A DNA stretch of 64,000 nucleotides from Treponema rectale (GTDB lineage: Bacteria; Spirochaetota; Spirochaetia; Treponematales; Treponemataceae): NCBI RefSeq assembly GCF_014202035.1, contig NZ_JACHFR010000003.1, positions 311,223-375,222 of the forward strand. The letters run 5' to 3'. The translations under genes and the position numbers were made by a program. Below, in pieces: positions 9,263 to 40,269 of this stretch. Numbering within the stretch: the stretch's first letter is position 1; every line of letters begins with the position of its first letter. The notes under the pieces are model-generated. The model was not told the origin of the DNA and did no database searches. It saw only the letters and a program-made list of their open reading frames with translations.

Positions 9263-9286
9263 AAGAGCAGACTCTCAATCCGTTTA

Positions 9287-9338
9287 GCAAAAGATCAAAT
9301 GCGGAAACTCCAAGTCCGAAACTATTCTTCCCAGCTCC
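9287..9338. repeat. 52-bp direct repeat, left copy; duplicates the 3' end plus downstream sequence of ybaK
   Basis: Identical to 15113-15164. It contains an in-frame remnant ..SWEE-stop of the ybaK C-terminus on the minus strand. Confidence 0.7.
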
Positions 9339-15112: not shown

Positions 15113-15164
15113 GTTAGCAAAAGATCAAATGCGGAAACTCCAAGTCCGAAACTATTCTTCCCAG
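15113..15164. repeat. 52-bp direct repeat, right copy; overlaps the native 3' end of ybaK
   Basis: Identical to 9287-9338. Confidence 0.7.
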
Positions 15165-16122: not shown

Positions 16123-16545
16123 TTATAGCTTTCCCATCAAATCCTTAATTGTTGTTTTTTTCAATTCTTTTTCCAAGGCCTTTTGGGCATTATCTAATGG
16201 CTGGTCTAAAACTGCATGGATTTTGCTTCCCACGGGACATTTTGGATTAGGATTTACATGAAAATTAAAAACAGAACGCTCGCTCTCCTTTTCTTCGCTT
16301 ACGGCTTTGTAAACATCCAAAAGTGAAATTTCTTCGGCTTTCTTTGAAAGGGTAGAGCCTCCGACCCCGGCTTTTGTTTCTACCATTCCAGCTGCCTGGA
16401 GTTTCCCCAAAATCTTTCTGATAATTACCGGGTTCATGCCAGTACTTCCTGCAATGAAGTCGGAAGTGACTTTGTTATCCTTTTCAAAATAAGCAATGCA
16501 GAGAATAGTGTGAATGGCAACCGTAAGGTTTGTGTTTAGTTTCAT
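16123..16545 (-). CDS. Rrf2-family transcriptional regulator
   Basis: N-terminal wHTH MKLNTNLTVAIHTILCIA...STGMNPVIIRKILGKLQAAGMV. Confidence 0.8.
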   Translation of the reverse strand: MKLNTNLTVAIHTILCIAYFEKDNKVTSDFIAGSTGMNPVIIRKILGKLQAAGMVETKAGVGGSTLSKKAEEISLLDVYKAVSEEKESERSVFNFHVNPNPKCPVGSKIHAVLDQPLDNAQKALEKELKKTTIKDLMGKL

Positions 16546-17075
16546 AATCCTGTCCTTGTTTCAGTATAGCAGAATTGTTGTAAAAAATAAAGAACAAGGA
16601 ATAAAGGTTTGGGCGTTACCGTCTGCCTGCCGGCAGCCGGTCGGGCTTTTCGCCATTCCGCTGCAATGGTATTTTGTGGAATATTTATAAAACCTGCGAT
16701 TTTTGAAGCAAGCTCACAGGCTGACTTTATTGCATCCTGTGCGTCATTCTTATTTATAAGATTTTGAATTTCATTTATTTTTGAATCAGAATCAATTTTT
16801 AATGTCTTTTTTAATTTTTCGATAAACTCATCTTTTTTAATTCTAAGTTTTGTAACTAAAGTCTGATTTTCTTTTTCAATCAAAGTAAGAAATTGAAGTG
16901 TTGGAATAGCGAAAATATTCTTTTTAAAAGAAGTATCTGAAAAAATGCCGGTTTTATTGAATATTTCTTCAAGCCGTTCTTGGACAAGGCTGTTTGTTAC
17001 ACAAAATTTCACCATCTTGTTTTCCATAACAGGATTTAAGACAGCGTGCTTTTCAAATAAAGCGTGAAAGTCCAT
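16542..17075 (-). CDS. Hypothetical protein (177 aa) whose 3' end reads through a GC-rich repeat
   Basis: The last ~30 codons (WRKARPAAGRQTVTP...) are encoded by GC-rich element 16611-16668. Confidence 0.4.
   Translation of the reverse strand: MDFHALFEKHAVLNPVMENKMVKFCVTNSLVQERLEEIFNKTGIFSDTSFKKNIFAIPTLQFLTLIEKENQTLVTKLRIKKDEFIEKLKKTLKIDSDSKINEIQNLINKNDAQDAIKSACELASKIAGFINIPQNTIAAEWRKARPAAGRQTVTPKPLFLVLYFLQQFCYTETRTGL
16611..16668. repeat. GC-rich miniature repeat lying inside the 3' end of the preceding gene
   Basis: GGGCGTTACCGTCTGCCTGCCGGCAGCCGGTCGGGC with palindromic core. Confidence 0.45.
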
Positions 17076-17113
17076 GTTTTTAACTTCTTTATAATCAAAG
17101 CGATAGCATTTTT

Positions 17114-17347
17114 TTACAAGAGAAGAACTTTTGAAAAATCAACTTGGAGCGTATCTGCAATGTTGTATAACTCATCTGCTGTCAGTTCTATTAGATTTTT
17201 GTTATTGTACAAAAACTTTGAAGTGCAGTAAAAATAGAGCTGCTCCCATTCTGCTTTCGTCATTATGCTTACATTTCGCTCTTTTACATAATCAACAAAG
17301 AAATGAACTGCATTTTTTGATTTTTTTCCTGACATTCTTTTCTCCAT
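17114..17347 (-). CDS. Hypothetical small protein (77 aa)
   Basis: ORF only. Confidence 0.35.
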   Translation of the reverse strand: MEKRMSGKKSKNAVHFFVDYVKERNVSIMTKAEWEQLYFYCTSKFLYNNKNLIELTADELYNIADTLQVDFSKVLLL

Positions 17348-17355
17348 AATTATTA

Positions 17356-17460
17356 GGGCGTTCCCCGCCGCGGGGCGGCGGGGCGGGCGTTACGCGGCTT
17401 GCCTGGCGGCCGGTCTGCTGACGCAGACTGCTTCGCACCGCTCCATGCCCTAACGCATTT
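17356..17460. repeat. GC-rich miniature repeat, well-preserved family member
   Basis: 5' end GGGCGTTCCCCGCCGCGGGGCGG; 3' end CTGCTTCGCACCGCTCCATGCCCTAACGCATTTT, shared with 34436-34548 and 24784-24980. Confidence 0.6.
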
Positions 17461-17469
17461 TACAGGAAT

Positions 17470-18132
17470 TTATTTAATTATGCCAAATGCAGGTAATAAC
17501 TGAGCAATAGTAGCAAGATTGCTTGCGGCACCCAAAATATTCTCAACAATTTCTAAAGGTGATGTCCCGTTTTTTGTAATCTCATCAATTTTTGCAGCAT
17601 CTTTTACATCTTTTTTGGCAGTTTTTATAAATTCATTCCGGGCTTGCTCATCATTTTTGTAAAGAACTGCACAGAATACGGAAATCGGCATTTCAACCTT
17701 ACGGCTGTTAAGATAGTTATCGGCAGGGTAGCCGGTTATGTCCTCCGCCGCATTAGCCAGATTCTTTTTTATATGCGGATAAGGCACACTCAGCAAAACA
17801 TTTTTATTATCTTTTTGAAGATAAATCTTTATGCTTCCGTTTGAAATTCTTGTTTTTAGTTCTGCTATAGATTCTTCCACAGATTGAGGCTTTTTTGCTC
17901 TGGCATTTGCCGCCAGTCTTAGTGCAGAAAGTTTTGTTTCTGTAATATGAAGTTCGTTTGCAATTTCGTTTTCCCTCATGGAGGAATCTATATAGCCCAA
18001 ATCTGTAATCAATGAAAAAACAAGAGTATCTATCTCTGATTTTGGAAGCACCCCAAAACCAAGTGACAGGTATTTTTCCAAAAACTGTTGAACAAATATT
18101 GAATCTCTTTTTTCGTTGACAGAATATTCCAT
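17470..18132 (-). CDS. Hypothetical protein (220 aa)
   Basis: ORF only. Confidence 0.45.
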   Translation of the reverse strand: MEYSVNEKRDSIFVQQFLEKYLSLGFGVLPKSEIDTLVFSLITDLGYIDSSMRENEIANELHITETKLSALRLAANARAKKPQSVEESIAELKTRISNGSIKIYLQKDNKNVLLSVPYPHIKKNLANAAEDITGYPADNYLNSRKVEMPISVFCAVLYKNDEQARNEFIKTAKKDVKDAAKIDEITKNGTSPLEIVENILGAASNLATIAQLLPAFGIIK

Positions 18133-18164
18133 AGTTTTTTCTCCATCTTTTTTGTCTTTGTTTT

Positions 18165-18225
18165 CCCCACCGTCGTCACTTTGTGCCGTCGGCGGGGCGG
18201 GACTACAGATACTGTAGCCCCTAAT
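18165..18225. repeat. GC-rich miniature repeat, short member
   Basis: CCCCACCGTCGTCAC...GGCGGGGCGGG...CCCCTAA. Confidence 0.4.
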
Positions 18226-18238
18226 TTAGTTTTATTAT

Positions 18239-19777
18239 TTAGTTAAAAACCCTGATACAACAAACGTTTCCTGGATAGTTACATACATAAAGCGGCAGCA
18301 AAGCATCTTTCATATTATCCTCTTTAAAGATGATATATTGTCCGTTATTAATACTACTTGGCGTTGATGATAAGTAAGCAGCTTCATATGTATCATCTAC
18401 TGCCATCGCATCATCTTCAAGACTTTTTCCAGTACATAATTTACAGGCTTCATTTACAGTAGACTTCTGTGTCCAAATATCATAAAGTTCTGCCAAAGAC
18501 GGTAAATACCATCCGTCTTCAAAATCTGTGTTTTTAACATGACTGCCTTCTTTATCTTTGTAATTAATTGCAAATTCAAATGCCGGATAGTGTGTTAAAT
18601 CGTCTGTGTCGTCCTCTGTTTTGTCATTTTCTTCAAGAAAAGCTTTAATTTCCGCAAGATTATCACTTCCATCAGTGTCACCAGTAAATGTTTCTGTTTT
18701 AGAATCAAAATCACACATTATAGATTCAACTTCATACTGTTCACCCATACCGGCCTTTATAACGATTTTCGATAAACGATTATACAATAGTAAACCATCC
18801 TTATTCTGCAAGATTCCAACACCGTACGCTTTAGAAACATCAGCCTTATAAATAATGGCAATTGAGTTTTCTTTCTGCTCGTCGGTAAGTGTAAGGCCCG
18901 AGGTATAAGGTGTGGCAGAGCCATCTGCAAATACAATGTCGCCAACTGCTTTTTGTGCATCCGGTTTTTTTGTTCCTGCAAACCATTTTGCAGTAATCTC
19001 TAAAGTTCCTGTAATTGGTGTTGTAAAGTCAAATTCAGTATCTCCGACAAACCAGCCTTTGAAAGCGCTTCCTTCTTTTGTCGGGTCAGCTGGTCTTTCA
19101 ACTTTATTTCCATGGTTGACAGTCTTGGTTTCTGCTGTGCTTCCGTTTTTTGAATCGAAAGTTACAGTATGAGTTACGACATTTGTTGCCCATTTTGCAT
19201 AAAGGGTAATGTCCTTTGTAATGGCTGTGTCAAAATCAAAGGCTGTATCAGAGAGTGTTGTGCCTTCGTCTTCTGAAGTGTACCAGTTTTCAAAGGTGTA
19301 AGTTTCTGTTTCTGTAGCCTGCTTTGTAGGGTCAGCGGGTTTTGTGACCTTTTTTCCGTGGACGATTGTCTGTTCCGCAGGAGACGTGCTTCCGCCTTTT
19401 GTGTCAAAAGTCACAGTGTGGGTAACTGCATTGACCGCCCATTTTGCATAAAGAGTAATGTCTTTTGTGATTGGAGTATTAAAGTCAAAGGCTGTATCAG
19501 AAAGTGTCGTGCCGTTGTCCGTTGATGTGTACCAGTTTTCAAAAGCGTATGTTTCAGTAGCGACAGCCTGTTTTGTTGGATTAGCCGGCTTTGTGGCCTT
19601 CTTTCCGCTTTCAACCTTCTGGCTTTTAACCTCTGTTCCGCCATTTGAATTGAAGCTTACGGTGTAATATACAGGTGGCTGTGATGTGTCATCATCATCA
19701 TCTGCCTTACATGAAGCAAAGGCAAATCCCAGCCCCATAGCCGCAAGCAAAAGAAGGTACCTCGCTAGTTTTTTCAT
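18239..19777 (-). CDS. Surface lipoprotein with three Listeria-Bacteroides-type (InlB B-repeat-like) ~80-aa repeats
   Basis: Lipobox LGFAFASC after a start at MKKLARYLL with GGAG RBS. Three ~250-bp tandem DNA repeats produce nested spurious ORFs on both strands. Paralog of 35651..37450. Confidence 0.7.
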   Translation of the reverse strand: MKKLARYLLLLAAMGLGFAFASCKADDDDDTSQPPVYYTVSFNSNGGTEVKSQKVESGKKATKPANPTKQAVATETYAFENWYTSTDNGTTLSDTAFDFNTPITKDITLYAKWAVNAVTHTVTFDTKGGSTSPAEQTIVHGKKVTKPADPTKQATETETYTFENWYTSEDEGTTLSDTAFDFDTAITKDITLYAKWATNVVTHTVTFDSKNGSTAETKTVNHGNKVERPADPTKEGSAFKGWFVGDTEFDFTTPITGTLEITAKWFAGTKKPDAQKAVGDIVFADGSATPYTSGLTLTDEQKENSIAIIYKADVSKAYGVGILQNKDGLLLYNRLSKIVIKAGMGEQYEVESIMCDFDSKTETFTGDTDGSDNLAEIKAFLEENDKTEDDTDDLTHYPAFEFAINYKDKEGSHVKNTDFEDGWYLPSLAELYDIWTQKSTVNEACKLCTGKSLEDDAMAVDDTYEAAYLSSTPSSINNGQYIIFKEDNMKDALLPLYVCNYPGNVCCIRVFN

Positions 19778-19930
19778 ATATGAATCTCCTTTAAAAATAA
19801 TAATAGTCTTATTATAAAAACCAGTTTTTTCCTGTAAACAGAGAAAACTCATCGAAATTCAGTGAGTTTTCTCACTTTTTTAGGTGATGAGGGGGTGGGT
19901 ATGTTGTTTGACCCCCTAATTAAAATTGAC

Positions 19931-19960
19931 AAAAAAGAGACAGTAATAGTACAATGTAGG
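19931..19960 (+). promoter_or_regulatory. Sigma70-like promoter TTGACA-N18-TACAAT upstream of the TA operon
   Basis: TTGACAaaaaagagacagtaatagTACAAT lies 15 bp upstream of the relB/dinJ start. Confidence 0.4.
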
Positions 19961-19974
19961 CGGAGGTAGTAAAA

Positions 19975-20238
19975 ATGACTACAATTTCTGCAAAAATCGA
20001 AAATGAAGACAAAAGTCTTTTTGAAAGCATCATAAACTCAATAGGATTGAATGTTACATCTGCAATTACAGCGTTCGTAAAGGCAACAATCCGAGAAAAT
20101 GGAATTCCTTTTGCATTAAAAGCTGCCGATGACCCCTATATCTATTCAGAAGAAAACATGAAATACCTTCGTCAAGGAATCGCTCAAATAGAATCAGGAA
20201 AAGGCCAGGTCCATGAATTAAAGGAGGAGCTTTTATGA
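19975..20238 (+). CDS. RelB/DinJ-family antitoxin
   Basis: DinJ-like RHH motif. Stop overlaps the toxin start (ATGA). Confidence 0.7.
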   Translation: MTTISAKIENEDKSLFESIINSIGLNVTSAITAFVKATIRENGIPFALKAADDPYIYSEENMKYLRQGIAQIESGKGQVHELKEELL

Positions 20239-20507
20239 TAAAAGTTTGGGCTGATGTTGCATGGGATGGTTACTGTCAACTCTTCGAACTCAATCAAAAA
20301 AAGTTGATAAAAATGGTGCATGAACTTATAAAAGACATAGAACGCAATGGTCTTGATAAAGGTCGTGGACAGCCAGAGCCGTTAAAATATGAGCTTACCG
20401 GTTATTGGAGTCGAAGAATCGATTCAGCAAATCGGCTAGTCTATAAAGTGGAGGGTGATAAATTGTACATAGTTCAGTGTGGTACTCATTATCACCAAGA
20501 AAAATAA
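20235..20507 (+). CDS. yoeB: YoeB/Txe-family toxin (RelE superfamily mRNA interferase)
   Basis: KVWADVAWDGY...GRGQPEPLKYELTGYWSRRID..NRLVYKVEGDKLYIVQCGTHY matches the YoeB consensus. Confidence 0.8.
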   Translation: MIKVWADVAWDGYCQLFELNQKKLIKMVHELIKDIERNGLDKGRGQPEPLKYELTGYWSRRIDSANRLVYKVEGDKLYIVQCGTHYHQEK

Positions 20508-20560
20508 AAGTGAGTTTTCTCTATGGTATTGACACCGGCAGATGAAGTAAAATAACTTTT

Positions 20561-21163
20561 ATGATTGAGATTATCAGTGTTGACGACCACGAAATGATTA
20601 GCCTGGGCCTGGAGCGGGTATTTTCACAGACAAAAGACATACGGGTCTGCCACTTCTGCAAGACAAAAGCAGAACTTGTGCCCTTTATCGAGTCAAAGTC
20701 TCCCGAAGAACTAAAAAACATGCTCGCCATGCTGGACATCAAGCTTGAAGAAGGAAGCGGCTTTGAGGTGGCCGATTTTCTGCTTGAAAAGGGCGTTAAG
20801 TGCCTTATGTACTCTTCTTTTTCAAATGCGGGCTATATCATAAAAACCATGGAGCACAAAATCACAGGCTTCATCACCAAAAATGCCCAGCAGCCGGAAA
20901 TCCTAGAGGCGGTTCATGCCGTTTTCTCAGGCGAAACCTACATTCAGAAAAATCTCCTTCCCGACATGATGTTCGTAAGCGGCATTCTTGTCACCCTCAC
21001 CAAAAAAGAGCGGGAACTGGTAGATTTAATGAGCGAGCACCTTTCCAACGAAGAACTGGCCCAGCGCCTGGCAGTCTCCAAGCGCACCATAGAAAACTAC
21101 GTCTCCCGCATTTTCGACAAGTTTAATGTAAAGAACCGCTACGAGCTGGAAAGATATTTGTAA
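20561..21163 (+). CDS. Response regulator, NarL/LuxR family (REC with atypical N-terminus + LuxR HTH)
   Basis: C-terminal LTKKERELVDLMSEHLSNEELAQRLAVSKRTIENYVSRIFDKF. Confidence 0.75.
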   Translation: MIEIISVDDHEMISLGLERVFSQTKDIRVCHFCKTKAELVPFIESKSPEELKNMLAMLDIKLEEGSGFEVADFLLEKGVKCLMYSSFSNAGYIIKTMEHKITGFITKNAQQPEILEAVHAVFSGETYIQKNLLPDMMFVSGILVTLTKKERELVDLMSEHLSNEELAQRLAVSKRTIENYVSRIFDKFNVKNRYELERYL

Positions 21164-21743
21164 GCAAAAATACTCCCCAGGCGGCAAAAACACAGATGAA
21201 GCGGTCGGCGATGTTCACGGGAATGCGCACGGCAATCTGCAAAAGGATCTTTGAGTGGAATTTGTTCTGCCACAAGAAGGTGAGGAAGTCGGTCTGGCTG
21301 CTGGCTTCGGTGTAGGCTTCGATATTGCTCAAAATGTAGCCGATGATTCCGCCAGATACGCTCATGACCAGCATCATTACAATGCTTAAGATTACAAGTT
21401 TTATAAAAGTTACGGCAGGCGTGTCGGTGTTTTTCATAAAATAGATTTTGTAGTAGCCGGCAGTCAGGGCCGCAAGAAAGTGACAGAGCATGAATATGTG
21501 CCCCAGTTCCAGCGTGCGGTTCAGGGCAAAATCAATCAGATGATAGAAAAATCCGGCCAGCACTCCCCACCAGGGGCCTACAAGAAAGCTGAGCGCCATA
21601 ATGAAAATCGTGTCGCAGAAAAGGGGCAGGTGGTTAGCCCAGGCCACAAGGTCGCAGATAATGTAATCCAAAAGGCCGCAGACAATGCTTAAGACAAAGA
21701 ATAAAAGCCTTTTCCGGCCCGCTGATTCAAAGTGAAGAGTCAT
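21123..21743 (-). CDS. Polytopic membrane protein (206 aa), paralog C of the TCS-associated family, inverted relative to its TCS
   Basis: Paralogous to 1106..1705 and 13759..14349 (LPLFCDTIFIMALSFLVG / DRFICVFAAWG). Its 3' end overlaps the convergent response-regulator 3' end by ~40 nt. Confidence 0.6.
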   Translation of the reverse strand: MTLHFESAGRKRLLFFVLSIVCGLLDYIICDLVAWANHLPLFCDTIFIMALSFLVGPWWGVLAGFFYHLIDFALNRTLELGHIFMLCHFLAALTAGYYKIYFMKNTDTPAVTFIKLVILSIVMMLVMSVSGGIIGYILSNIEAYTEASSQTDFLTFLWQNKFHSKILLQIAVRIPVNIADRFICVFAAWGVFLLTNIFPARSGSLH

Positions 21744-21828
21744 ACCCTAATTCTAGCATATTTCTTGAAATCCTGTCAGACCGGAGCGCAAAATTGAAAT
21801 TTTGGCATTTTCCAGCTATAGTAGACAG

Positions 21829-22893
21829 ATGAAACTTTTCGTAGTCCTCCTGTTCTCTCTTCTTTTTATTTTTCAGGCTTTTCCCCACGAGGCGAAAAAA
21901 CAGTCAGAAAATCTTACGCTTGAAGCCCTTACGCAAAAATGGCTTGAATATGAAGGCTCTGAGCAAGACAAGTCAGAAAAGCTTTTTGAAGAATTCTCTG
22001 TCGAAGTTGAAAAGGCAGCTCCCTCCGACACTATCGTTTACTATTTTCCGGAAGCGAAGGTCATCCACGAAAACATTCTTGAGGGAATAAAAGCCGGCGA
22101 CAGGGAGAAGATTTCCGACAATGTGCGAAGCTGGGAAATCCTTCAGAAAAATCTCGTGCGCTTTCAGCTCGACGAGGTTTATTATTCCTATAGAATCCTG
22201 ATTCTTGTAATCGTTCTTGCCCTGCTCATGTCGCTCATTTTCCTTGTCCTCTATCTTGTCACTTCCAAAAGCCGCAAGGAAAACCTTGCCTTTACAACCC
22301 GGATGATTCAGACTCAGGAAGCAGAGCGGGAGCGCATTTCCAACGAGCTTCACGACACGGTCTGCCAGGATTTGCGGGTCCTGCAGTTTCAGCTAAAAGA
22401 AGAAGAATCTATTACCCTCTGCCAGAAAATCGCTTCTGATGTGCGGAACTCCTGCTACGCCCTTACTCCATCCGACTTGAACGAAGGTCTTTACGAGGCC
22501 CTCGTCTCCCTCTGCGACATGCTGAAAAAACAGAGCGGGGTCGAAATCATCTTTTTTATTCAGGACGAAGTGAGAAAGAATCCGGACTTTATAAATTTCT
22601 CCAAGGACAAGAACCTGAACATTTACAGAATCGTGCAGGAAGTCCTCGGAAACGCCGTAAAGCACTCTGGAGCTGAAAGCGTGAGCCTGCTGGTCAGAAC
22701 GCTGGACGAAAAACATTTCAAGATTATCGTCTCCGATGACGGTGCGGGCTTTGACCTAAAAAGCGCCCTCAAAAAGAAAAAACATTTCGGCCTAAAAAAC
22801 ATCCAGAGCCGCACAAAAGGAATTGGCGGCAAGGTCGTTTTCAACTCTGCCCCCGGAGACGGCTGCCAGGTTACGGTGACTATTCCTTATTGA
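21829..22893 (+). CDS. Sensor histidine kinase, HisKA_3 type, with signal/TM segment, ~100-aa external domain and second TM
   Basis: LHDTVCQDL H-box; HATPase_c C-terminus. Start chosen at MKLFVV; the ORF is open from 21802 (TTG). Confidence 0.7.
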   Translation: MKLFVVLLFSLLFIFQAFPHEAKKQSENLTLEALTQKWLEYEGSEQDKSEKLFEEFSVEVEKAAPSDTIVYYFPEAKVIHENILEGIKAGDREKISDNVRSWEILQKNLVRFQLDEVYYSYRILILVIVLALLMSLIFLVLYLVTSKSRKENLAFTTRMIQTQEAERERISNELHDTVCQDLRVLQFQLKEEESITLCQKIASDVRNSCYALTPSDLNEGLYEALVSLCDMLKKQSGVEIIFFIQDEVRKNPDFINFSKDKNLNIYRIVQEVLGNAVKHSGAESVSLLVRTLDEKHFKIIVSDDGAGFDLKSALKKKKHFGLKNIQSRTKGIGGKVVFNSAPGDGCQVTVTIPY

Positions 22894-23247
22894 TTGCAGG
22901 AATCGGAGCCGGGGAAGAAGATTTTGCTTGCAAAAGAGAATGGGTATTTTATACGTTGTATCTATGTTCTTACCTGTAATCCAGATATAAATGTCTCGCG
23001 TGTTGAATCTCGTGCTGCAAATGGTGGACATTCTGTACCCGAAGATAAAATCCGTTCTCGCTATGGAAAAGCAATTGCTCTTATACCCGAACTTGTGAAA
23101 GTTTGCGATGTACTTCATATTTATGACAATTCTACTTTACCGTTCAGAATATTCAAAAAGCGAAAGACTGAGTGTTTTTATTGGCCGAACGATGACTGGA
23201 GTAAAGAGAAAATCCAGCAGCTTATAGGAATTGATTTATGTCTGTAA
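22894..23247 (+). pseudogene. C-terminal fragment of a zeta-toxin/AAA_33-like kinase; the N-terminal P-loop half is absent
   Basis: NPDINVSRVESRAANGGHSVPEDKIRSRYGKAI...VLHIYDNS matches the C-terminal half of the zeta-toxin family. The frame opens immediately after the kinase stop codon. Confidence 0.5.
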
Positions 23248-23291
23248 AAATCTAAAAGGCACATACGCCGCCCATCCAAATTTTTTATAGG

Positions 23292-23410
23292 GGATGACCA
23301 ATAAGTTCAAAAAGTGTCATTTTCGGGCTTGACACGAAAATCTATTTAATTACAACACAAGAGATTGCCGTGTCGAGCACGGCAATGACTCATACTTATT
23401 GGACAGCCCC
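23292..23410. mobile_element. MITE-like element, copy 2 of 3 (minimal ~119-bp form)
   Basis: TIRs GGGGATGACCAATAAGTT / ACTTATTGGACAGCCCC. Internal palindromes TTTTCGGGCTTGACACGAAAA and TTGCCGTGTCGAGCACGGCAA. Confidence 0.65.
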
Positions 23411-23588
23411 TTTTTGTCTTTCCTCACCATACTTGTTGTAAAAAATAAATAACATCATTTGACATTTATAAATTACAACGCTATATTATTCTTAGTTGTA
23501 AACAATAAATTACAACAGAAAAGCAAAACATATCTTTTAATCAGCCTGATCACCTGCTTTTAAGATAAAAACTTAACGAGGTAATTTT

Positions 23589-24392
23589 ATGGAAAAGACA
23601 CAGTTCACATCGGTTCAGCTTTCAAAGGGCGTTATGGAAATCTATGATTTTGGTTCAATCAAGCTTCACGCATTCAAGACTAATGACTTGATTTCGGATG
23701 AATGTTTTCTGGTGGAAAAAGCTGGCAGCTGCTTCATGATTGAATCCCCATGCTTTTTTGACAACATCAGGGAGCTGGAAAAATACATTTCCGACACAGG
23801 CTTGAAATATGAGGGTGCAGTCATTGCCTATCACGGAGCGGGAGCTTCTTTTATGAAAGGAAGCAAAGTCTATTCGACAAAGAATGCTGATGACTACAAT
23901 CACAATGGTGGCGGGGCAGGGCTTGTTTCAAACTTCGCGGGAGCATTTGGGGAAGCTTTCGATAAATCAATCTATACGACTACGGATTTTATTGAAGGTG
24001 ACAGCCTGACTCTTTGCGGTGTGGAAATGAAAATCACCCGCACTCAGGAAGCCTTTGACATCTTCATTCCTGAAATCAATGTGGTTTATACTCACATGCT
24101 GGGACACGATGTTCATTCAATTGTTGCAGGAAAAGCACACGCCGACGCACTTATTTCCGTACTGGAATCTTATATCCAGAAAAAGGTCGGACTCGTTTTG
24201 ACAAGCCATTATGTTGTGGAAAATCTGGACGATGTGAAAACCAAGATTGAATATCTTAAGAGTCTTAAAAACATCGCAATCAAAAATGTTGATGCTGCTG
24301 GCTTTAAGGCGGCAGTGCAGTCAGCATATCCAAAATATTCAGGCTTGAACTATCTTGATATGTCGGCCGGAATGTTCTTTCCTGGAAAATAA
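23589..24392 (+). CDS. Hypothetical protein (267 aa)
   Basis: ORF with RBS; no confident domain assignment. Confidence 0.5.
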   Translation: MEKTQFTSVQLSKGVMEIYDFGSIKLHAFKTNDLISDECFLVEKAGSCFMIESPCFFDNIRELEKYISDTGLKYEGAVIAYHGAGASFMKGSKVYSTKNADDYNHNGGGAGLVSNFAGAFGEAFDKSIYTTTDFIEGDSLTLCGVEMKITRTQEAFDIFIPEINVVYTHMLGHDVHSIVAGKAHADALISVLESYIQKKVGLVLTSHYVVENLDDVKTKIEYLKSLKNIAIKNVDAAGFKAAVQSAYPKYSGLNYLDMSAGMFFPGK

Positions 24393-24409: not shown

Positions 24410-24772
24410 ATGACAGTTACAGAAATTGCAGAATATCTTGATAAAGTAGGCTTACAGTATCTGGCAACAAATGGAGCTTTCTGCGAATCCTTATATTGAC
24501 CTTTGTGGCTCCCGTCTTATGGAGAATGAAATTGATACAGTCTGGATTCGCATGAGTGCAAGGGTTGTCTTTGAAGAAAATCTTACGGTTAAGAAAATGA
24601 TTATGGAAAAATCTTCCATAGTTCGCTAGTTGTACAAAAATGATGCAAATCAACCTCTGTTCAAGGTTTTCTATCTTTCTGAGATTTCCGGTAGTCTGAA
24701 CAATCTTGGTCATGTTAAGGGACTTGAAGAGAATAAAGATTTTTCTAAGCCGGTTGTTTTTAATTTTTAAAG
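24410..24772 (+). pseudogene. Frameshifted pyridoxamine 5'-phosphate oxidase-like (PNPOx/general stress protein 26-like) gene
   Basis: Three consecutive frames give MTVTEIAEYLDKVGLQYLATNG.. / ..VWIRMSARVVFEENLTVKKMIME.. / ..LFKVFYLSEISGSLNN.., together spanning a PNPOx-like fold. Confidence 0.45.
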
Positions 24773-24783
24773 GAAAATGAATT

Positions 24784-24980
24784 CGGGCGTTCCCGCCGGG
24801 ATGTTTTCGCTTACGCTCAATACAGCCCATCGGTCGGCTGTTCCGCGCTTCGCCTGTTCGGCTCATCCTCCTCGCTTCGCTGTGGTGGACTGCTTCGCAG
24901 GCGCTCCATAGCCTAACGCGAGCAAAGCGAGCGTAACGTCAATAATTTCCTATTAGCTAAACGGAGGGCTTGCCCCGACG
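24784..24980. repeat. GC-rich miniature repeat, long member
   Basis: Starts CGGGCGTTCCCGCCGGG. Contains CTGCTTCGCAGGCGCTCCATAGCCTAACGC. Confidence 0.55.
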
Positions 24981-25017
24981 TATATCCTGACGCATGGTCA
25001 AAATCAAGGAGGTTCTT

Positions 25018-25890
25018 ATGAAGGACATCAAATCAATCTTACAAAATGCAGACTCAGTTCTCATCGGTGCCGGGGCAGGGCTTTCAACGTCCAGCGGTTT
25101 TACTTACAGCGGGCCTCGCTTTCAAAAATATTTTGCTGATTTTGAAAGGAAGTACGGTTTTCATGATATGTATTCCGGTGGCTTTACGGCTTTTGAAAGT
25201 CTTGAAGAAAACTGGGCCTACTGGAGCCGGCAGATTTATCTGAATCGTTTTGTAAAAGCTCCTTTGCCTGTCTATGAAAAACTTTTTGAGCTTGTGAAGG
25301 AAAAAAACTATTTTGTCCTTACGACCAATGTTGACCACTGCTTTCAGAAGGCCGGTTTTGATAAATCAAGGCTCTTCTACACTCAGGGTGATTACGGACT
25401 CTGGCAGTGTTCTGAAGCATGTCACAAGAAAACTTACGACAATCAAGCTACGGTTGAAAATATGCTTTTGGCCCAGGGCTTTGTAATTCAAAGTGATGGC
25501 AGTCTTGAACTACCGGAAAATGGCTTTGAAGGAATCAAAATGACTGTTCCGTCAGAACTGGTTCCCCGCTGTCCTGCTTGCGGAAAGCCCATGACAATGA
25601 ACCTGCGCTGTGACGATACTTTTGTGGAAGATGATGGCTGGCACTCTGCGGCATTACGCTATGAGGATTTTCTGAATAAGAACAAAGACGGTCGTATTGT
25701 TTTTCTGGAGCTTGGTGTTGGCGGTAATACTCCTGGAATCATCAAATATCCTTTCTGGAAGATGACTTATGCTAATCCAAAAGCAAAATACATCTGCATA
25801 AACAAGGGTGAAGCAGTAGTTCCGAAAGAAATTGAAAATCAGAGTATTTGCGTGAATAATGATATTTATGAGGTTTTAAAAAGCTTATGA
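25018..25890 (+). CDS. SIR2-like protein (sirtuin fold: GAGAG NAD-binding loop, TTNVD motif, CxxxC...CxxC zinc knuckle; no obvious catalytic HG)
   Basis: LIGAGAGLSTSSGF, VLTTNVDHCFQKAGF, WQCSEACHK...PRCPACGKPM. Strong AAGGAGG RBS before the ATG at 25018. Its stop overlaps the next gene's start. Confidence 0.7.
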   Translation: MKDIKSILQNADSVLIGAGAGLSTSSGFTYSGPRFQKYFADFERKYGFHDMYSGGFTAFESLEENWAYWSRQIYLNRFVKAPLPVYEKLFELVKEKNYFVLTTNVDHCFQKAGFDKSRLFYTQGDYGLWQCSEACHKKTYDNQATVENMLLAQGFVIQSDGSLELPENGFEGIKMTVPSELVPRCPACGKPMTMNLRCDDTFVEDDGWHSAALRYEDFLNKNKDGRIVFLELGVGGNTPGIIKYPFWKMTYANPKAKYICINKGEAVVPKEIENQSICVNNDIYEVLKSL

Positions 25891-26792
25891 CACAGGCAGA
25901 ACGCAGATTATATTTGATAACAGAACTCCTAAAAGAAGATAAGGGAAGTGCAGGCTTTAATCTGGGTCTTGTGCCAGGAAATGAAGGCGGCTTTGTGATT
26001 CCTGATGATGAAAAAAGTCAGCGAGATATACTGAGGGCTTTGATGAATATTCGTGGTCCATATTCCATTAGCGAAGACTTTTTGAGAATACAGGATGAGT
26101 ACCTGCAGCAGGTTAATAAAGAGCGGGGGATTACGGATATTGAAGACTTGGAATGTGTAAAAGAGATTGTCGGGGCAAGCCCGACAATGACACAAGTTGC
26201 AAGTCCGTCAACGACAAAGGATGTCATTCCCGTGCTTGACACGGGAATCTCAAAGAAACTTTATCTCTGGCAGGGTGACATCACTACGCTAAAAGTTGAT
26301 GCAATTGTTAATGCTGCAAACTCTGCCCTGCTAGGCTGCTTTGCGCCGCTTCACATCTGTATAGACAACTGTATCCACACCTATGCAGGTATTCAGCTGC
26401 GGCTTGCCTGTAACGAGCTGATGCAAAAACAGGGACACGAAGAAGAAAACGGACTTTGTAAAATCACCCCGGCCTTTAATCTTCCAAGCCGTTATGTTTT
26501 GCACACTGTCGGCCCCATTATTTACACAAGTGCAGGGCCTCGCGAAAAGTTTCTGCTTGCAAACTGCTACAAAAACTGCCTTGAAACTGCGGCACAAAAT
26601 CAGCTTGAATCGGTTGCCTTCTGCTGTATTTCTACCGGAGTCTTCAGATTCCCTCAGGACCTTGCTGCTCAGATTGCAGTTGCGACGGTAGAAAAGTGGC
26701 TTTCAGAAAATCCAGATTCCAGCGTGAAGAAGATTGTCTTTAATGTCTTTGGAAATAAGGATCTGGAGATTTATCAGGGGCTTTTACTTTAG
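25887..26792 (+). CDS. Macro-domain protein (MacroD-type ADP-ribose hydrolase fold) with a ~120-aa unknown N-terminal extension
   Basis: LYLWQGDITTLKVDAIVNAANSALLG...ITPAFNLPSRYVLHTVGP matches the macro consensus. Cys/His-rich insertion CFAPLHICIDNCIH. Confidence 0.75.
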   Translation: MTQAERRLYLITELLKEDKGSAGFNLGLVPGNEGGFVIPDDEKSQRDILRALMNIRGPYSISEDFLRIQDEYLQQVNKERGITDIEDLECVKEIVGASPTMTQVASPSTTKDVIPVLDTGISKKLYLWQGDITTLKVDAIVNAANSALLGCFAPLHICIDNCIHTYAGIQLRLACNELMQKQGHEEENGLCKITPAFNLPSRYVLHTVGPIIYTSAGPREKFLLANCYKNCLETAAQNQLESVAFCCISTGVFRFPQDLAAQIAVATVEKWLSENPDSSVKKIVFNVFGNKDLEIYQGLLL

Positions 26793-26805: not shown

Positions 26806-27096
26806 TTACAATTCATGATAATAAGGACAGATATTTTCAAAATGTCCGTCCTTCATTCTAAATCCTTTTGGAATTGTGCCCAGCTGTACAAAGCCCAGTC
26901 GCTCATACAAATGGCGGGCGTGAATATTGCTTTCTTTTTCTGCAACACAAGATAAGGTTTGTCCTGCAAAAAAAGCCTTGCCGCTTTCTGGAGTCAGCAG
27001 ATCTTCCTGCGGAAACGCAATTCCATCTTCTACAACTTCGTTCCAGATTTGAATCATTGCTGTAAGATCTTTTTCTTCGTATTTTCTGACTGTCAT
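26806..27096 (-). CDS. GNAT-family acetyltransferase, apparently internally truncated (~96 aa)
   Basis: N-terminal IRKYEEKDLTAMIQIWNE and C-terminal HARHLYERLGFVQLG motifs are present. The central acetyl-CoA binding motif is missing. Confidence 0.4.
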   Translation of the reverse strand: MTVRKYEEKDLTAMIQIWNEVVEDGIAFPQEDLLTPESGKAFFAGQTLSCVAEKESNIHARHLYERLGFVQLGTIPKGFRMKDGHFENICPYYHEL

Positions 27097-27319
27097 ATAA
27101 ACCCTTTTATTTAAATATAACAAAAAACTGACTCAGAGAAAATAACAAAAAAACACAGTTGAACGTTATAAAAATAATGAACTGGCTTGAACACGAGCGG
27201 AAATTTTCAGAGCAATGTAACGCGAAACTTATCAAATGGTAGAAAAGCGAAGAAATCAGTTATGATGCTCTCCGTGATGATTACATTTTGCTTCAATGTT
27301 TGGTTTGAGCTCATCTTTT

Positions 27320-32216: not shown

Positions 32217-32715
32217 TTACTTCAACAAGCCTTCAAGATAATTTTTTACTTCTGCTTCACTTGTACGGGTAAAATCTTTTCCGCCCTTATAGTCACAGCC
32301 TTTTGCCAAGCCCGCTGCTTCCGCTTGTGCAGAGTGTGCCAAGTTTTTTACCCGACCAGTTTTGGTTTTCAACAAATGTGCAGACGATTTTTGGTGCGCG
32401 TCCCCACCAGATTGGATAGCAGAGCACAATAGTGTCATAGTCTGAAATGTCGATTTTATTTGCAATTGCAGGACGGTTTTCAGGATCGTTGCATTCCACT
32501 GTAGCCCGAGATTTTTTGTTACGCCAGTTAAGGTCGGCCTTTGTGTATTTTTGAACTGGCTGAATCTCAAAAATGTCGGCTTCCATCGCATGAGCGGCAT
32601 TCTTTGCCATGCGCTCGGTTGTTCCTGTTGCGCTGAAGTAAACAAATGCTGTTTTAGCAAAGGCTCCCGTCATAAGAAGCCCTCCGACTAAAAGGGTAAG
32701 AATAAGTTTTTTCAT
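32217..32715 (-). pseudogene. Secreted flavodoxin (Flavodoxin_4-like) with a frame change near its 3' end (frameshift, recombination junction or sequencing error)
   Basis: Frame A gives signal peptide + VYFSATGTTERMAK...TSGSSGLGK then a stop. Frame B continues ..GCDYKGGKDFTRTSEAEVKNYLEGLLK. The switch falls at the boundary of the 54-bp repeat 32237-32290. Confidence 0.45.
32237..32290. repeat. 54-bp direct repeat, copy 1 (3' end of flavodoxin)
   Basis: Identical to 35439-35492. Confidence 0.7.
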
Positions 32716-33238: not shown

Positions 33239-33360
33239 GCGTTAGGGATTGTAGGGGCGGCGAAGCCGTTCGGCAGCAATGGGATTGTCGGGGCTAGCCC
33301 GACAATGACAGTGCGGACGAATGGAGCCGAAAGGCGGAATCCCGAAAAGCCCGGCCAATT
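33239..33360. repeat. GC-rich miniature repeat (reverse orientation)
   Basis: TGCGTTAGGGATTGTAGGGGCGG...GAATGGAGC, i.e. the reverse complement of the family 3' motif. Confidence 0.5.
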
Positions 33361-35334: not shown

Positions 35335-35438
35335 GAGCTGAAGAAGGAAACGCGATTATGCCAAAGAAAATTGTAGTAGTGAATGCAGGCCCAGAAAATG
35401 GGTAAAATCGCTTAAGAACTGCACGACACTTCTGCTTC

Positions 35439-35492
35439 ACTTGTACGGGTAAAATCTTTTCCGCCCTTATAGTCACAGCCGCTCCAATCCCT
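35439..35492. repeat. 54-bp direct repeat, copy 2 (orphan remnant of flavodoxin 3' end)
   Basis: Identical to 32237-32290. A short remnant MPKKIVVVNAGPENG-stop of a flavoprotein N-terminus lies just upstream at 35357-35404. Confidence 0.65.
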
Positions 35493-40226: not shown

Positions 40227-40269
40227 ACGGTAATTATATTTACTTTCTATTGATATAATATAATCCAGC

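What the first reader, a model, noticed from the sequence alone, without database searches (positions are those of the whole stretch)
25018..26792. Overlapping SIR2-like + macro-domain gene pair (SirTM/macro-type ADP-ribosylation writer-eraser?) without the usual GcvH-L/LplA2 partners
The SIR2-like protein has the GAGAG NAD loop, the TTNVD motif and a Cys4 zinc knuckle, but no evident catalytic His-Gly. Its stop overlaps the start of a macro-domain protein that carries an internal Cys/His-rich insert and a ~120-aa unknown N-terminal domain. Macrodomain-linked sirtuins (SirTM) are protein mono-ADP-ribosyltransferases, and their partner macro domain, which binds Zn, reverses the mark. In the described cases they sit in an operon with GcvH-L and LplA2. 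Here neither is nearby, so the target is unknown. SIR2 and macro domains also recur in anti-phage NAD-depletion systems. Either role makes this a candidate for an uncharacterised system.
Basis: partly seen in the sequence, partly recalled or inferred. Interest (0 to 1): 0.65.

Follow-up and report, generated by a model that had tools for sequence, protein, structure and literature searches.

The report
Lone SirTM / zinc-macrodomain ADP-ribosylation pair
This is a Treponema rectale copy of an already described two-gene switch: a sirtuin-like enzyme attaches ADP-ribose to a protein and a zinc macrodomain removes it. The stand-alone form without the lipoyl-carrier genes is already in the literature; its protein target is still unknown.

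Summary

- **SirTM:** it matches the S. pyogenes SirTM structure 5A3A at E 1.8e-65. It has QG in place of the catalytic HG, plus the Asn/Gln/Arg trio and a Cys4 zinc site.
- **Zn-Macro:** it passes NCBIfam's protein-ADP-ribose hydrolase equivalog (337 bits, cutoff 272). It has the Cx4HxC zinc loop, NAAN and the N-terminal three-helix bundle. Its best structural match is the "minimal operon" M. oralis enzyme.
- **Missing partners:** no GcvH, LplA, LLM or OYE gene lies anywhere in the 64-kb window.

That "lone pair" arrangement is not new. Rack 2015 and Ariza 2024 describe it and list Treponema examples, and they state that its targets are unknown. No defence-system model matched.

**What I add:**
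- In relatives the pair lies in HxlR- or Rrf2-flanked clusters with PNPOx-like flavoproteins, nitroreductases and an unnamed MBL-fold protein.
- In T. rectale the PNPOx-like gene is a pseudogene.
- The Rrf2 gene has been moved about 7 kb away.
- A palindromic repeat is inserted in frame in the macro linker.

Verdict: a new member of a known kind, of modest interest.

The parts
25018..25890 (+). SirTM (class-M, macrodomain-linked sirtuin), 290 aa. Predicted NAD+-dependent protein mono-ADP-ribosyltransferase.
   Evidence: PDB 5A3A (S. pyogenes SirTM) E 1.8e-65 over aa 11-295 of the 298-aa reading; the fungal fusion Foc1Mfs1 (8RSN) E 1.2e-21; no other PDB chain at E<=1. Pfam SIR2 scores 19.6 bits, below the cutoff of 24. 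100% identical to a Treponema rectale protein.
25384..25389 (+). QG motif (Q123-G124) replacing the sirtuin catalytic HG. With N104 (25327-25329) and R197 (25606-25608) it forms the SirTM catalytic trio.
   Evidence: The alignment to 5A3A maps Spy N118/Q137/R192 onto N104/Q123/R197 (290-aa numbering). The trio is defined in PMC4518038.
25408..25581 (+). Small zinc-binding subdomain of SirTM: CSEAC (aa 131-135) and CPAC (aa 185-188).
   Evidence: The cysteines align with CSQHC and CPEC of 5A3A.
25887..25890 (+). ATGA overlap of the SirTM stop and the Zn-Macro start, which implies translational coupling.
   Evidence: The same overlap occurs in relative L002.
25887..26792 (+). Zn-Macro (zinc-dependent MacroD-type protein-ADP-ribose hydrolase), 301 aa.
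   Evidence: NCBIfam NF003163 protein-ADP-ribose hydrolase, 337 bits against a cutoff of 272. PDB 8RSI MorMacro E 2.4e-72, 5KIV SauMacro E 1.3e-65, 8RSM SpyMacro E 1.3e-57.
25992..26162 (+). N-terminal three-helix bundle region of the Zn-Macro (aa ~36-92), including R50 and N54, which are equivalent to SauMacro Arg42 and Asn46.
   Evidence: Aligned to residues 25-77 of 8RSI and 34-89 of 5KIV. The role of the bundle is described in PMC11490716.
26143..26255 (+). In-frame insertion of palindromic REP/MITE-like hairpins in the linker between the helix bundle and the macro domain (aa ~89-122, ...EIVGASPTMTQVASPSTTKDVIPVLDTGIS).
   Evidence: One member of repeat family D6, whose other four copies (8744, 23358, 33278, 56893) lie outside the called ORFs. 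Absent from relatives L003, L004 and L058. The linker length varies among homologues.
26310..26378 (+). Zn-Macro active site: NAAN (aa 142-145), zinc loop C151-x4-H156-x-C158, and D160/N161/H164.
   Evidence: with alignments. The motif definitions come from PMC11490716.
25006..25012 (+). Shine-Dalgarno sequence AAGGAGG, 5 nt before the SirTM ATG.
24774..25005 (.). About 230-250 bp of repeat-derived DNA between the pseudogene and SirTM. The closest relative has only a 9-bp gap here.
   Evidence: L002 9994->10008 corresponds to window 24773->25025. It shares short segments with 873-908 and 33239-33274. No Rfam match, and its fold is unexceptional at z -0.17.
24410..24770 (+). Pseudogene of a PNPOx-like split-barrel flavoprotein that is intact (152 aa) in relatives L002 and L003.
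   Evidence: a 100-bp deletion at 24470/24473 causes a frameshift, and there is an in-frame TAG near 24627. An independent Logan assembly, L001, shows the same 29-aa stub. The intact orthologue matches Pfam PNPOx_N at E 8.7e-12.
23589..24392 (+). First gene of the cluster ('c29'): a 267-aa protein with a metallo-beta-lactamase fold that belongs to no Pfam family.
   Evidence: No Pfam or PDB sequence match. AlphaFold2 model pLDDT 89.4. Foldseek matches MBL-superfamily structures at E 1e-9, TM ~0.6. Conserved upstream of the pair in L002 and L003 and next to Macro-SirTM in L085. dN/dS 0.04.
23459..23487 (+). Best promoter-like site (TTGACA-17-TATATT, 11 of 12 matches) upstream of c29. It is the candidate promoter for c29-psiPNPOx-SirTM-Macro.
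   Evidence: This is a consensus match only.
16123..16545 (-). Rrf2-family regulator. It abuts c29 divergently in relative L002 but lies about 7 kb away here.
   Evidence: Pfam Rrf2 E 1.7e-31; synteny.
16597..23427 (.). About 6.8 kb present in T. rectale but absent from L002, lying between the Rrf2 gene and c29. It carries a RelB/YoeB pair, a LuxR-type response regulator, a histidine kinase and a surface repeat protein.
   Evidence: L002 8577->8551 joins window 16596 and 23428; Pfam.

Best explanation
**What the genes are.** They form a SirTM/Zn-Macro reversible protein mono-ADP-ribosylation module of the already described 'lone pair' (minimal operon) type, in Treponema rectale.

**Identity, shown by sequence.**
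- Gene 1 is a class-M sirtuin. Gln123 replaces the catalytic His, and Asn104 and Arg197 complete the trio.
- Gene 2 is a MacroD-type hydrolase. Its glycine-rich catalytic loop is replaced by a Cx4HxC zinc loop that is buttressed by an N-terminal three-helix bundle.

**Mechanism, inferred from characterised orthologues (PMC4518038, PMC11490716).**
- SirTM uses NAD+ to put a single ADP-ribose on an acidic side chain of a specific protein.
- It has no deacylase activity.
- The zinc macrodomain hydrolyses that ester and releases ADP-ribose.
- The 4-nt overlap couples translation of writer and eraser.

**Target and regulation, inferred from gene neighbourhood.**
- The target is probably not a GcvH-L lipoyl carrier. 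None is encoded nearby, and the basic residues that dock GcvH-L on the S. pyogenes and S. aureus enzymes are I211, T214, E220 and Y213 here.
- The module ancestrally belonged to a cluster under a redox- or electrophile-sensing regulator: Rrf2 in this Treponema clade and HxlR in many gut Clostridia. That cluster also encoded an MBL-fold protein and PNPOx-like, nitroreductase or NmrA-like oxidoreductases. I therefore expect the pair to modulate an oxidant or electrophile stress response.
- In T. rectale the PNPOx-like partner has decayed and the regulator gene has been displaced. The pair itself is intact and under purifying selection.
For: **Identity**
- SirTM: 5A3A at E 1.8e-65; only class-M structures hit; motifs.
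- Zn-Macro: NF003163, 337 > 272; 8RSI, 5KIV, 8RSM; zinc loop, NAAN, helix bundle.
- Organism.

**Lone-pair status**
- No GcvH, LplA, LLM or OYE Pfam domain in any selected window ORF.
- None appeared among the recurrent neighbour clusters I annotated in the 80 related loci.
- A tblastn lead with E. coli GcvH and LplA sequences recalled from memory gave only chance-level hits.
- The literature already describes lone pairs, including in Treponema.
- Minimal-operon Zn-Macros do not demodify GcvH-L in vitro.
- The basic docking patch is absent (mapping).

**Neighbourhood**
- 70 of 82 loci carry both genes.
- Of 52 loci with at least 4 kb upstream, 30 have a PNPOx-like, PNPOx-ferredoxin, nitroreductase or NmrA-like gene, and 26 have HxlR or Rrf2, within about 7 genes.
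- L002 and L003 read c29 - PNPOx - SirTM - Macro, preceded in L002 by a divergent Rrf2 gene. L085 reads HxlR<- c29 - Macro - SirTM.
- c29 homologues sat next to HxlR or Rrf2 in all four other contexts examined.

**Integrity**
- dN/dS against L002 is 0.11 for SirTM, 0.19 for Macro and 0.04 for c29.
Against: - No activity, target or expression data exist for this organism. The enzymology is transferred from S. aureus, S. pyogenes, M. oralis and fungal orthologues.
- I could not search the rest of the T. rectale genome, so a distal GcvH or other lipoyl protein as target is not excluded.
- The neighbourhood statistic comes from the 80 best tblastn hits to this protein, which is one SirTM subclade. 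It uses my own ORF calling and clustering and has no background-frequency control. About 40% of the loci show none of the redox genes.
- In T. rectale the cluster is eroded: a pseudogene, a 6.8-kb insertion, and about 250 bp of repeat DNA in front of SirTM. Regulation here may therefore differ from the ancestral state.
- The dN/dS values average over both lineages and do not prove constraint after the pseudogenisation.
- Mapping of the S. pyogenes basic patch relies on a numbering offset that I inferred from the alignment.
Confidence: 0.8

Rival explanations
1. The pair has the same enzymology as described, but the target is a lipoylated GcvH or another lipoyl-domain protein encoded elsewhere in the T. 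rectale genome. The pair would then work exactly like the Staphylococcus/Streptococcus system with its partners unlinked.
For: GcvH-L is the only known SirTM substrate, and modification depends on lipoylation (PMC4518038). Only 64 kb of the genome could be inspected. SirTM is 60-66% identical across phyla, so a widely conserved housekeeping target is plausible.
Against: - No GcvH or LplA was found in the window or among the recurrent neighbours in 80 related loci.
- Zn-Macros from minimal operons and fusions fail to demodify GcvH-L in vitro. AF3 models of the T. pedis Zn-Macro with GcvH-L are of low confidence (PMC11490716).
- The basic docking residues are replaced by I, T, E and Y.
Confidence: 0.15
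2. The pair is a decaying remnant in T. rectale. It would be no longer expressed, or no longer useful, after loss of the PNPOx-like partner and separation from its regulator.
For: The adjacent PNPOx-like gene is a pseudogene. About 250 bp of repeat DNA lie between it and SirTM, and 6.8 kb lie between the Rrf2 gene and c29. A repeat has been inserted inside the macro ORF. No promoter-like site lies directly upstream of SirTM.
Against: - Both ORFs are full length with every catalytic and metal-binding residue intact.
- A strong ribosome-binding site and the start/stop overlap are kept.
- dN/dS is 0.11 and 0.19.
- The linker insertion keeps the reading frame, and it sits where relatives also tolerate insertions.
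Confidence: 0.07
3. The pair is an anti-phage defence module in which the SIR2 domain depletes NAD+ on infection and the macro domain plays an accessory or antitoxin-like role.
For: SIR2 and macro domains both recur in defence systems (general knowledge). A RelB/YoeB toxin-antitoxin pair and an AAA/DUF234 ATPase lie within 15 kb.
Against: - PADLOC gave nothing for the macro protein and only E 0.022 over 40 residues for the SIR2 protein.
- The protein is a full-length orthologue of a biochemically characterised ADP-ribosyltransferase.
- It has no sensor or effector partner domain.
- The conserved neighbours are redox enzymes and HxlR or Rrf2 regulators, not defence genes.
Confidence: 0.03
4. 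The two genes are an ordinary CobB-type deacetylase and a stand-alone YmdB-type O-acetyl-ADP-ribose deacetylase that happen to be adjacent.
For: Source databases name the proteins 'NAD-dependent SIR2 family protein deacetylase' and 'O-acetyl-ADP-ribose deacetylase'.
Against: - There is no catalytic His; the motif is QG.
- CobB models score 14-29 bits against cutoffs of 221-395.
- YmdB-type equivalogs score at most 153 bits against cutoffs of 200 or more, whereas the SirTM-linked hydrolase model passes.
- The two genes are linked in 70 of 82 loci.
Confidence: 0.01

Closest known systems
Lone (minimal-operon) SirTM/Zn-Macro pairs. Examples: Methanobrevibacter oralis MorMacro (PDB 8RSI-K), and the Enterococcus faecalis, Treponema pedis and T. 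denticola pairs (Rack 2015; Ariza 2024).
   Same: Two adjacent genes with no GcvH-L or LplA2. The same QG sirtuin and Cx4HxC macrodomain. MorMacro is the best structural match (E 2.4e-72). The same genus is already listed in the literature. The target is unknown in all of them.
   Different: - Gene order is SirTM then Macro with a 4-nt overlap. This order occurs in 9 of 70 loci; the other 61 have the usual Macro then SirTM.
- The macro linker carries a 33-aa repeat-derived insertion.
- The locus retains traces of a larger cluster with an MBL-fold gene, a PNPOx-like gene and an Rrf2 regulator. I did not find that association described in the papers searched.
[quoted passage not shown]
   Same: Orthologous writer and eraser (5A3A E 1.8e-65; 5KIV E 1.3e-65; 8RSM E 1.3e-57). 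Both are associated with flavin-dependent oxidoreductases and, by inference, with oxidative stress.
   Different: - There is no GcvH-L, LplA2, LLM or OYE here.
- The oxidoreductase neighbours belong to other families: PNPOx-like, nitroreductase and NmrA-like.
- The basic GcvH-L docking patch of the macrodomain is absent.
- Gene order is reversed.
Fungal Mfs1 macrodomain-SirTM fusion (Fusarium oxysporum Foc1Mfs1, PDB 8RSN).
   Same: It has the same two catalytic modules, and both halves match (E 1.2e-21 and 7.9e-45). It lacks a GcvH-L partner and its target is unknown.
   Different: In the fungal protein the modules are fused into a single polypeptide in the order macro then SirTM. Here they are two genes in the opposite order.

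Membership tests
SirTM (class-M, macrodomain-linked sirtuins) | The catalytic HG motif is replaced by QG | tested here: met
   QGDYG at aa 123-127. Q123 aligns with Spy Q137.
SirTM (class-M, macrodomain-linked sirtuins) | Catalytic trio equivalent to Asn118, Gln137 and Arg192 of SpySirTM | tested here: met
   N104, Q123 and R197 align with it in the phmmer alignment to 5A3A.
SirTM (class-M, macrodomain-linked sirtuins) | Full-length sequence relationship to a characterised SirTM and not to other sirtuin classes | tested here: met
   5A3A matches at E 1.8e-65 over nearly the whole length. The only other PDB hit at E<=1 is the Mfs1 fusion. CobB models score far below their cutoffs.
SirTM (class-M, macrodomain-linked sirtuins) | Genetic linkage to a Zn-Macro gene | tested here: met
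   The genes overlap by 4 nt here. Both genes are present in 70 of 82 related loci.
SirTM (class-M, macrodomain-linked sirtuins) | Robust protein mono-ADP-ribosyltransferase activity with no deacylase activity | not testable with these tools
   This needs an enzyme assay.
Zn-Macro (zinc-dependent MacroD-type hydrolases) | Cx(4)HxC zinc loop in place of the glycine-rich catalytic loop | tested here: met
   C151-FAPL-H156-I-C158 aligns with the loops of 8RSI, 5KIV and 8RSM.
Zn-Macro (zinc-dependent MacroD-type hydrolases) | NAAN motif and the Asp/His dyad of MacroD-type enzymes | tested here: met
   N142-A-A-N145, D160 and H164.
Zn-Macro (zinc-dependent MacroD-type hydrolases) | N-terminal three-helix bundle that stabilises the zinc loop | tested here: met
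   aa 36-92 align with the bundle region of 8RSI and 5KIV. R50 and N54 correspond to SauMacro Arg42 and Asn46. This was tested by sequence only; I did not model the structure.
Zn-Macro (zinc-dependent MacroD-type hydrolases) | Passes the curated family model | tested here: met
   NCBIfam NF003163 scores 337 bits against a cutoff of 272.
Zn-Macro (zinc-dependent MacroD-type hydrolases) | Zinc-dependent hydrolysis of protein-linked ADP-ribose | not testable with these tools
   This needs an enzyme assay and metal analysis.
Extended SirTM operon (GcvH-L / LplA2 type) | GcvH-L and LplA2 genes flank the pair | tested here: not met
   No GCV_H or lipoate-ligase domain occurs in any selected ORF of the 64-kb window. 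None appears among the recurrent neighbours of 80 related loci.
Extended SirTM operon (GcvH-L / LplA2 type) | Associated LLM (PF00296) and OYE (PF00724) oxidoreductases | tested here: not met
   Neither domain occurs in the window (the same Pfam calls).
Extended SirTM operon (GcvH-L / LplA2 type) | Basic surface patch on the macrodomain that docks GcvH-L (Spy R172/K175/R183; Sau R175/R176) | tested here: not met
   The aligned residues are I211, T214 and E220, and Y213 and T214. The S. pyogenes numbering offset is my inference.
Anti-phage SIR2 systems (Thoeris ThsA, DSR, SIR2-HerA, SIR2-pAgo) | Match to a defence-family SIR2 model and presence of the system's partner domain or gene | tested here: not met
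   The best PADLOC hit is E 0.022 over 40 residues, and the macro protein gave none. No SLOG, HerA or pAgo partner lies in the neighbourhood.
Canonical deacylase sirtuin (CobB) with YmdB-type macrodomain | Catalytic His in an HG motif; passes the CobB and YmdB equivalog models | tested here: not met
   The motif is QG, not HG. CobB models score 14-29 bits against cutoffs of at least 221. O-acetyl-ADP-ribose deacetylase models score at most 153 bits against cutoffs of at least 200.

The most novel reading that the evidence does not exclude
Lone SirTM/Zn-Macro pairs of gut anaerobes (Treponema and many Clostridia) may be the distal genes of HxlR- or Rrf2-controlled oxidant/electrophile stress operons. 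Their ADP-ribosylation target may be a co-encoded redox protein rather than a lipoyl carrier. Candidates are the PNPOx-like (ferredoxin-fused) flavoprotein and the unnamed MBL-fold protein. That would give a concrete, testable candidate list for the open question of what lone SirTMs modify.
Probability: 0.25. Interest if true: 0.6.

Novelty: new member of a known kind. Interest (0 to 1): 0.3.

Why it matters
The pair itself adds little. It is one more member of a family whose enzymology and structures are published, and its stand-alone arrangement has been noted before, including in Treponema.

The useful part is the context. The literature says the substrates of lone SirTM/Zn-Macro pairs are unknown. 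In this SirTM subclade the pair is repeatedly preceded by the same small set of genes:
- an HxlR or Rrf2 regulator;
- PNPOx-like flavoproteins;
- nitroreductase or NmrA-like enzymes;
- an MBL-fold protein with no family name.

That points to a thiol, quinone or oxidant stress role and gives a short list of candidate substrates to test. The loci recovered are mostly gut and rumen metagenome-assembled genomes, so the family is not confined to the pathogens emphasised in the papers.

Tried and rejected
- **Exact-sequence contig look-up, 298-aa reading from 24994:** found nothing. The 290-aa reading from 25018 is the annotated protein.
- **Locus search with a 24-sequence SirTM alignment:** too diverse to run. 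I repeated it with 9 closer sequences. The neighbourhood sample is therefore one subclade.
- **Rfam:** no gathering-score hits in the whole window. The SirTM upstream region gave only a chance-level snoRNA hit.
- **Fold of the ~250-nt insert upstream of SirTM:** no better than shuffled sequence, z -0.17. It aligns only in short patches with other intergenic repeats. I treat it as repeat debris, not a regulatory RNA.
- **tblastn with E. coli GcvH and LplA:** the query sequences were recalled from memory, so this is only a lead. It gave chance-level hits, E >= 0.1.
- **The other PNPOx-family gene in the window (37593-38069):** not a paralogue of the decayed one, E 1.6, so there is no evidence of compensation.
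- **The NADase_transloc-domain protein 3.7 kb away:** I considered it as a possible NAD-related partner and dropped it. It is not conserved next to the pair in relatives.
- **Loci with a SirTM but no macro hit:** I did not pursue these 12, because some of the contigs end immediately after SirTM.
Full report
**1. What is in the sequence**

Two same-strand ORFs occupy the finding.

- The first runs to a TGA at 25888-25890. Its real start is the ATG at 25018. That ATG is preceded by AAGGAGG at 25006-25012. It gives the 290-aa protein that is 100% identical to a protein named from Treponema rectale. The same protein was found on an independent assembly. The upstream in-frame ATG at 24994 has no ribosome-binding site, and the 298-aa product is not on record.
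- The second ORF, 25887-26792 (301 aa), starts inside the first one's stop codon (ATGA).

**2. Identity of the two proteins**

*The sirtuin-like protein.*
- At E <= 1 it matches only two solved structures. One is S. pyogenes SirTM (5A3A-C, E 1.8e-65, nearly full length). The other is the SirTM half of the Fusarium macro-SirTM fusion 8RSN (E 1.2e-21).
- Pfam's general SIR2 model falls below its threshold (19.6 against 24).
- CobB-type NCBIfam models score 14-29 bits against cutoffs above 220.
- The alignment to 5A3A places N104, Q123 and R197 on SpySirTM Asn118, Gln137 and Arg192. Mutation of any of these three residues dramatically decreases ADP-ribosyltransferase activity (PMC4518038). The QG-for-HG replacement defines class M.

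*The macro protein.*
- It passes NCBIfam NF003163, 'protein-ADP-ribose hydrolase' (337 bits, cutoff 272). It fails the YmdB/O-acetyl-ADP-ribose deacetylase equivalogs.
- Its best structural relatives are the four zinc macrodomains of Ariza et al. 2024: MorMacro 8RSI (E 2.4e-72), SauMacro 5KIV/8RSL (E ~1e-65) and SpyMacro 8RSM (E 1.3e-57).
- It carries the family's Cx4HxC zinc loop (C151, H156, C158), NAAN (142-145), D160 and H164.
- Residues 36-92 align with the three-helix bundle, including the conserved Arg and Asn that pack against the zinc loop (R50, N54).

The 'unknown N-terminal domain' is the known helix bundle plus a linker insertion (section 5).

**3. Are the usual partners absent, and is that new?**

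I scanned all 61 ORFs of at least 80 aa that I selected (overlaps removed) in the window against Pfam. None has a GCV_H, lipoate-ligase, luciferase-like monooxygenase or Old Yellow Enzyme domain. The pair is therefore 'lone' within 64 kb.

That is not a new situation.
- Rack et al. [quoted passage not shown]
- Ariza et al. 2024 distinguish extended operon, operon (lone pair) and fusion. They solved the structure of a lone-pair enzyme (M. oralis), modelled the T. pedis enzyme, and list T. denticola as 'operon' type.
- They showed that lone-pair and fusion Zn-Macros cannot demodify GcvH-L, and they state that the targets of these systems are unknown.

In line with that, the basic residues reported to dock GcvH-L are not basic here. 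Spy R172, K175 and R183 align with I211, T214 and E220. Sau R175 and R176 align with Y213 and T214. The S. pyogenes numbering offset is my inference from the alignment.

**4. Context in relatives**

A scan of one genome per GTDB species with a SirTM alignment returned 80 loci. Four are close Treponema relatives (83-89% identity), two are more distant Treponema, and the rest are mostly gut or rumen Clostridia (59-66%).

- Both genes are present in 70 of 82 loci. The order is Macro then SirTM in 61, and SirTM then Macro in 9, including the T. rectale clade.
- I called ORFs, clustered all 1301 neighbouring proteins and annotated cluster representatives. No GcvH-like or LplA-like cluster appeared among those I annotated.
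- The recurrent neighbours were these (locus counts from the first clustering):
  - a divergently transcribed HxlR-family regulator (29 loci);
  - a PNPOx-like domain fused to a 2x[4Fe-4S] ferredoxin, usually immediately upstream of Macro (23 loci);
  - a stand-alone PNPOx-like protein (10 loci);
  - a nitroreductase (11 loci);
  - an NAD(P)H-binding NmrA-like protein (11 loci);
  - a radical-SAM/SPASM protein (10 loci);
  - an Rrf2 regulator (10 loci).
- After re-searching with cluster HMMs, I looked at the 52 loci with at least 4 kb upstream. Of these, 30 have at least one of the four oxidoreductase types and 26 have HxlR or Rrf2 within about seven genes.
- The stand-alone PNPOx-like protein and the PNPOx-ferredoxin protein are homologous (E 8e-9).

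HxlR/DUF24 and Rrf2 regulators include thiol-based sensors of quinones, diamide, HOCl and NO. I base this on general knowledge and on the titles and abstracts listed. I found no paper that mentions SirTM together with these families, but the library searched is incomplete.

**5. The T. rectale locus is an eroded version of a four-gene cluster**

In the closest relatives the order is c29 - PNPOx-like - SirTM - Macro. In L002 a divergent Rrf2 gene directly abuts c29. Against L002, the window differs in four ways.

(a) The PNPOx-like gene (24410-24770) has a 100-bp deletion with frameshift and an in-frame stop. The same stub appears in an independent assembly.

(b) About 250 bp of repeat-derived DNA separates the pseudogene from SirTM, where L002 has 9 bp. 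This DNA has no Rfam match and no unusual fold.

(c) About 6.8 kb (16597-23427) now separates the Rrf2 gene (16123-16545) from c29. It carries a RelB/YoeB pair, a two-component system and a surface protein.

(d) A palindromic REP/MITE-like element is inserted in frame at 26143-26255. Its four other copies in the window lie outside the called ORFs. The insertion adds about 33 residues to the linker between the helix bundle and the macro domain. Relatives lack it or carry other insertions at the same spot.

Despite this erosion, SirTM, Macro and c29 are intact. Their dN/dS values against L002 are 0.11, 0.19 and 0.04.

**6. The upstream gene c29 (23589-24392)**

- It has no Pfam, NCBIfam or PDB sequence match, but it has more than 2000 homologues.
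- An AlphaFold2 model (pLDDT 89) matches metallo-beta-lactamase-superfamily structures (Foldseek E 1e-9, TM ~0.6). Invariant His and Asp residues (H82, H169, H173, D174, H176, H207) fit a metal site.
- In the four other contexts examined it sits beside an HxlR or Rrf2 gene. In an Oscillospiraceae genome it is followed directly by Macro and SirTM.

**7. Mechanism**

*Shown.* Both proteins have the sequence identity and every catalytic, NAD-binding and metal-binding residue of the two characterised enzyme families. Their reading frames overlap, and they are linked across many genomes.

*Inferred from characterised orthologues.* SirTM transfers one ADP-ribose from NAD+ to an acidic residue of a specific protein and does not deacylate. 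The Zn-Macro hydrolyses the ester with a catalytic zinc ion.

*Inferred from context.* The target is not a GcvH-L-type carrier. The module belongs to an oxidant or electrophile stress response governed ancestrally by Rrf2 or HxlR.

*Speculative.* The substrate may be one of the co-encoded proteins. The PNPOx-like pseudogene in T. rectale argues against that protein being the sole substrate. c29 remains possible.

**8. Rivals**

- A distal lipoylated GcvH as target cannot be excluded without the whole genome (confidence 0.15).
- Decay to non-function is possible but is opposed by the intact ORFs and low dN/dS (0.07).
- A defence role has no support (0.03): PADLOC gave no significant hit, and the conserved neighbours are redox genes.
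- The 'ordinary deacetylase plus YmdB' reading is refuted by the motif and model tests (0.01).

**9. Verdict**

This is a new member of a known kind, the lone SirTM/Zn-Macro pair, which is already reported in Treponema. Interest is modest at 0.3. The most useful output is the conserved redox-gene neighbourhood, which supplies candidates for the open question of what these pairs modify.

Noticed in passing
window 26143-26255 (inside the Zn-Macro ORF); other copies at 8744-8776, 23358-23390, 33278-33310 and 56893-56925: A palindromic REP/MITE-like hairpin element (consensus GATTGTCGGGnnnnGCCCGACAATGACA) is inserted in frame in a coding region, adding about 33 aa to the macro linker. Its other four copies lie outside the called ORFs. 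Relatives carry no insert or different inserts at the same linker position.
   Followed up: partly
window 24410-24770 (+): A pseudogene of a PNPOx-like flavoprotein lies directly upstream of SirTM. It has a 100-bp deletion with frameshift and an in-frame TAG. The gene is intact (152 aa) in the relatives L002 and L003.
   Followed up: yes
window 23589-24392 (+); homologues in L082, L085, L086 and L090: A widespread protein family of about 265 aa (more than 2000 homologues) has no Pfam or NCBIfam model. Its predicted fold is metallo-beta-lactamase-like with invariant His/Asp residues. It lay next to an HxlR or Rrf2 regulator in every context examined.
   Followed up: partly
window 16597-23427: About 6.8 kb is absent from the closest relative (L002). 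It carries a RelB/YoeB toxin-antitoxin pair (19975-20507), a LuxR-type response regulator, a histidine kinase, a truncated zeta-toxin-like ORF (my reading of the sequence, no database match) and a Listeria-Bacteroides-repeat surface protein. It looks like an accessory insertion that split the Rrf2 gene from its divergent cluster.
   Followed up: partly
window 40262-40716: Four tandem units of about 113 nt (80-93% identical) lie between a Na/Pi-cotransporter-PhoU-OmpR fusion gene and the trpG/D gene. Each unit contains two hairpins followed by a T run. There is no Rfam match, and by eye I saw no Trp-rich leader peptide. It could be a tandem small-RNA or terminator array.
   Followed up: no
window 9284-9335 with 15114-15165, and 32248-32300 with 35428-35480: Two pairs of perfectly identical 52-53-nt direct repeats bracket 5.8 kb and 3.2 kb of DNA. 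They could be att-like duplications flanking inserted elements. The first pair encloses an AAA/DUF234 ATPase and a two-component system. The second encloses a cyclophilin-like protein, a hydrolase and a TetR regulator.
   Followed up: no
window 30485-32071 (-): A 528-aa protein with a signal-peptide-like N-terminus (by eye) has a C-terminal 'NAD glycohydrolase translocation' F5/8 type C domain (PF25302, E 1.3e-16). It lies 3.7 kb from the pair, is not conserved beside it in relatives, and is probably unrelated.
   Followed up: partly
L004 713-5443: In one close Treponema relative, 4.7 kb of DNA is inserted exactly at the SirTM/Macro junction and separates writer from eraser.
   Followed up: no
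window 26806-27123 (-): A 105-aa ORF just downstream of the macro gene looks like a truncated GNAT acetyltransferase. It has only weak NCBIfam hits (ArsN1/RimI, E 0.003-0.07) and seems to lack the middle of the fold.
   Followed up: no
window 1-252: The left end of the window holds several copies of a 36-42-nt motif (ATGAAAGATATTAAGTAAAACTGTTACCGGAAAAAA) within ~107-nt repeats. Their nature is unknown.
   Followed up: no
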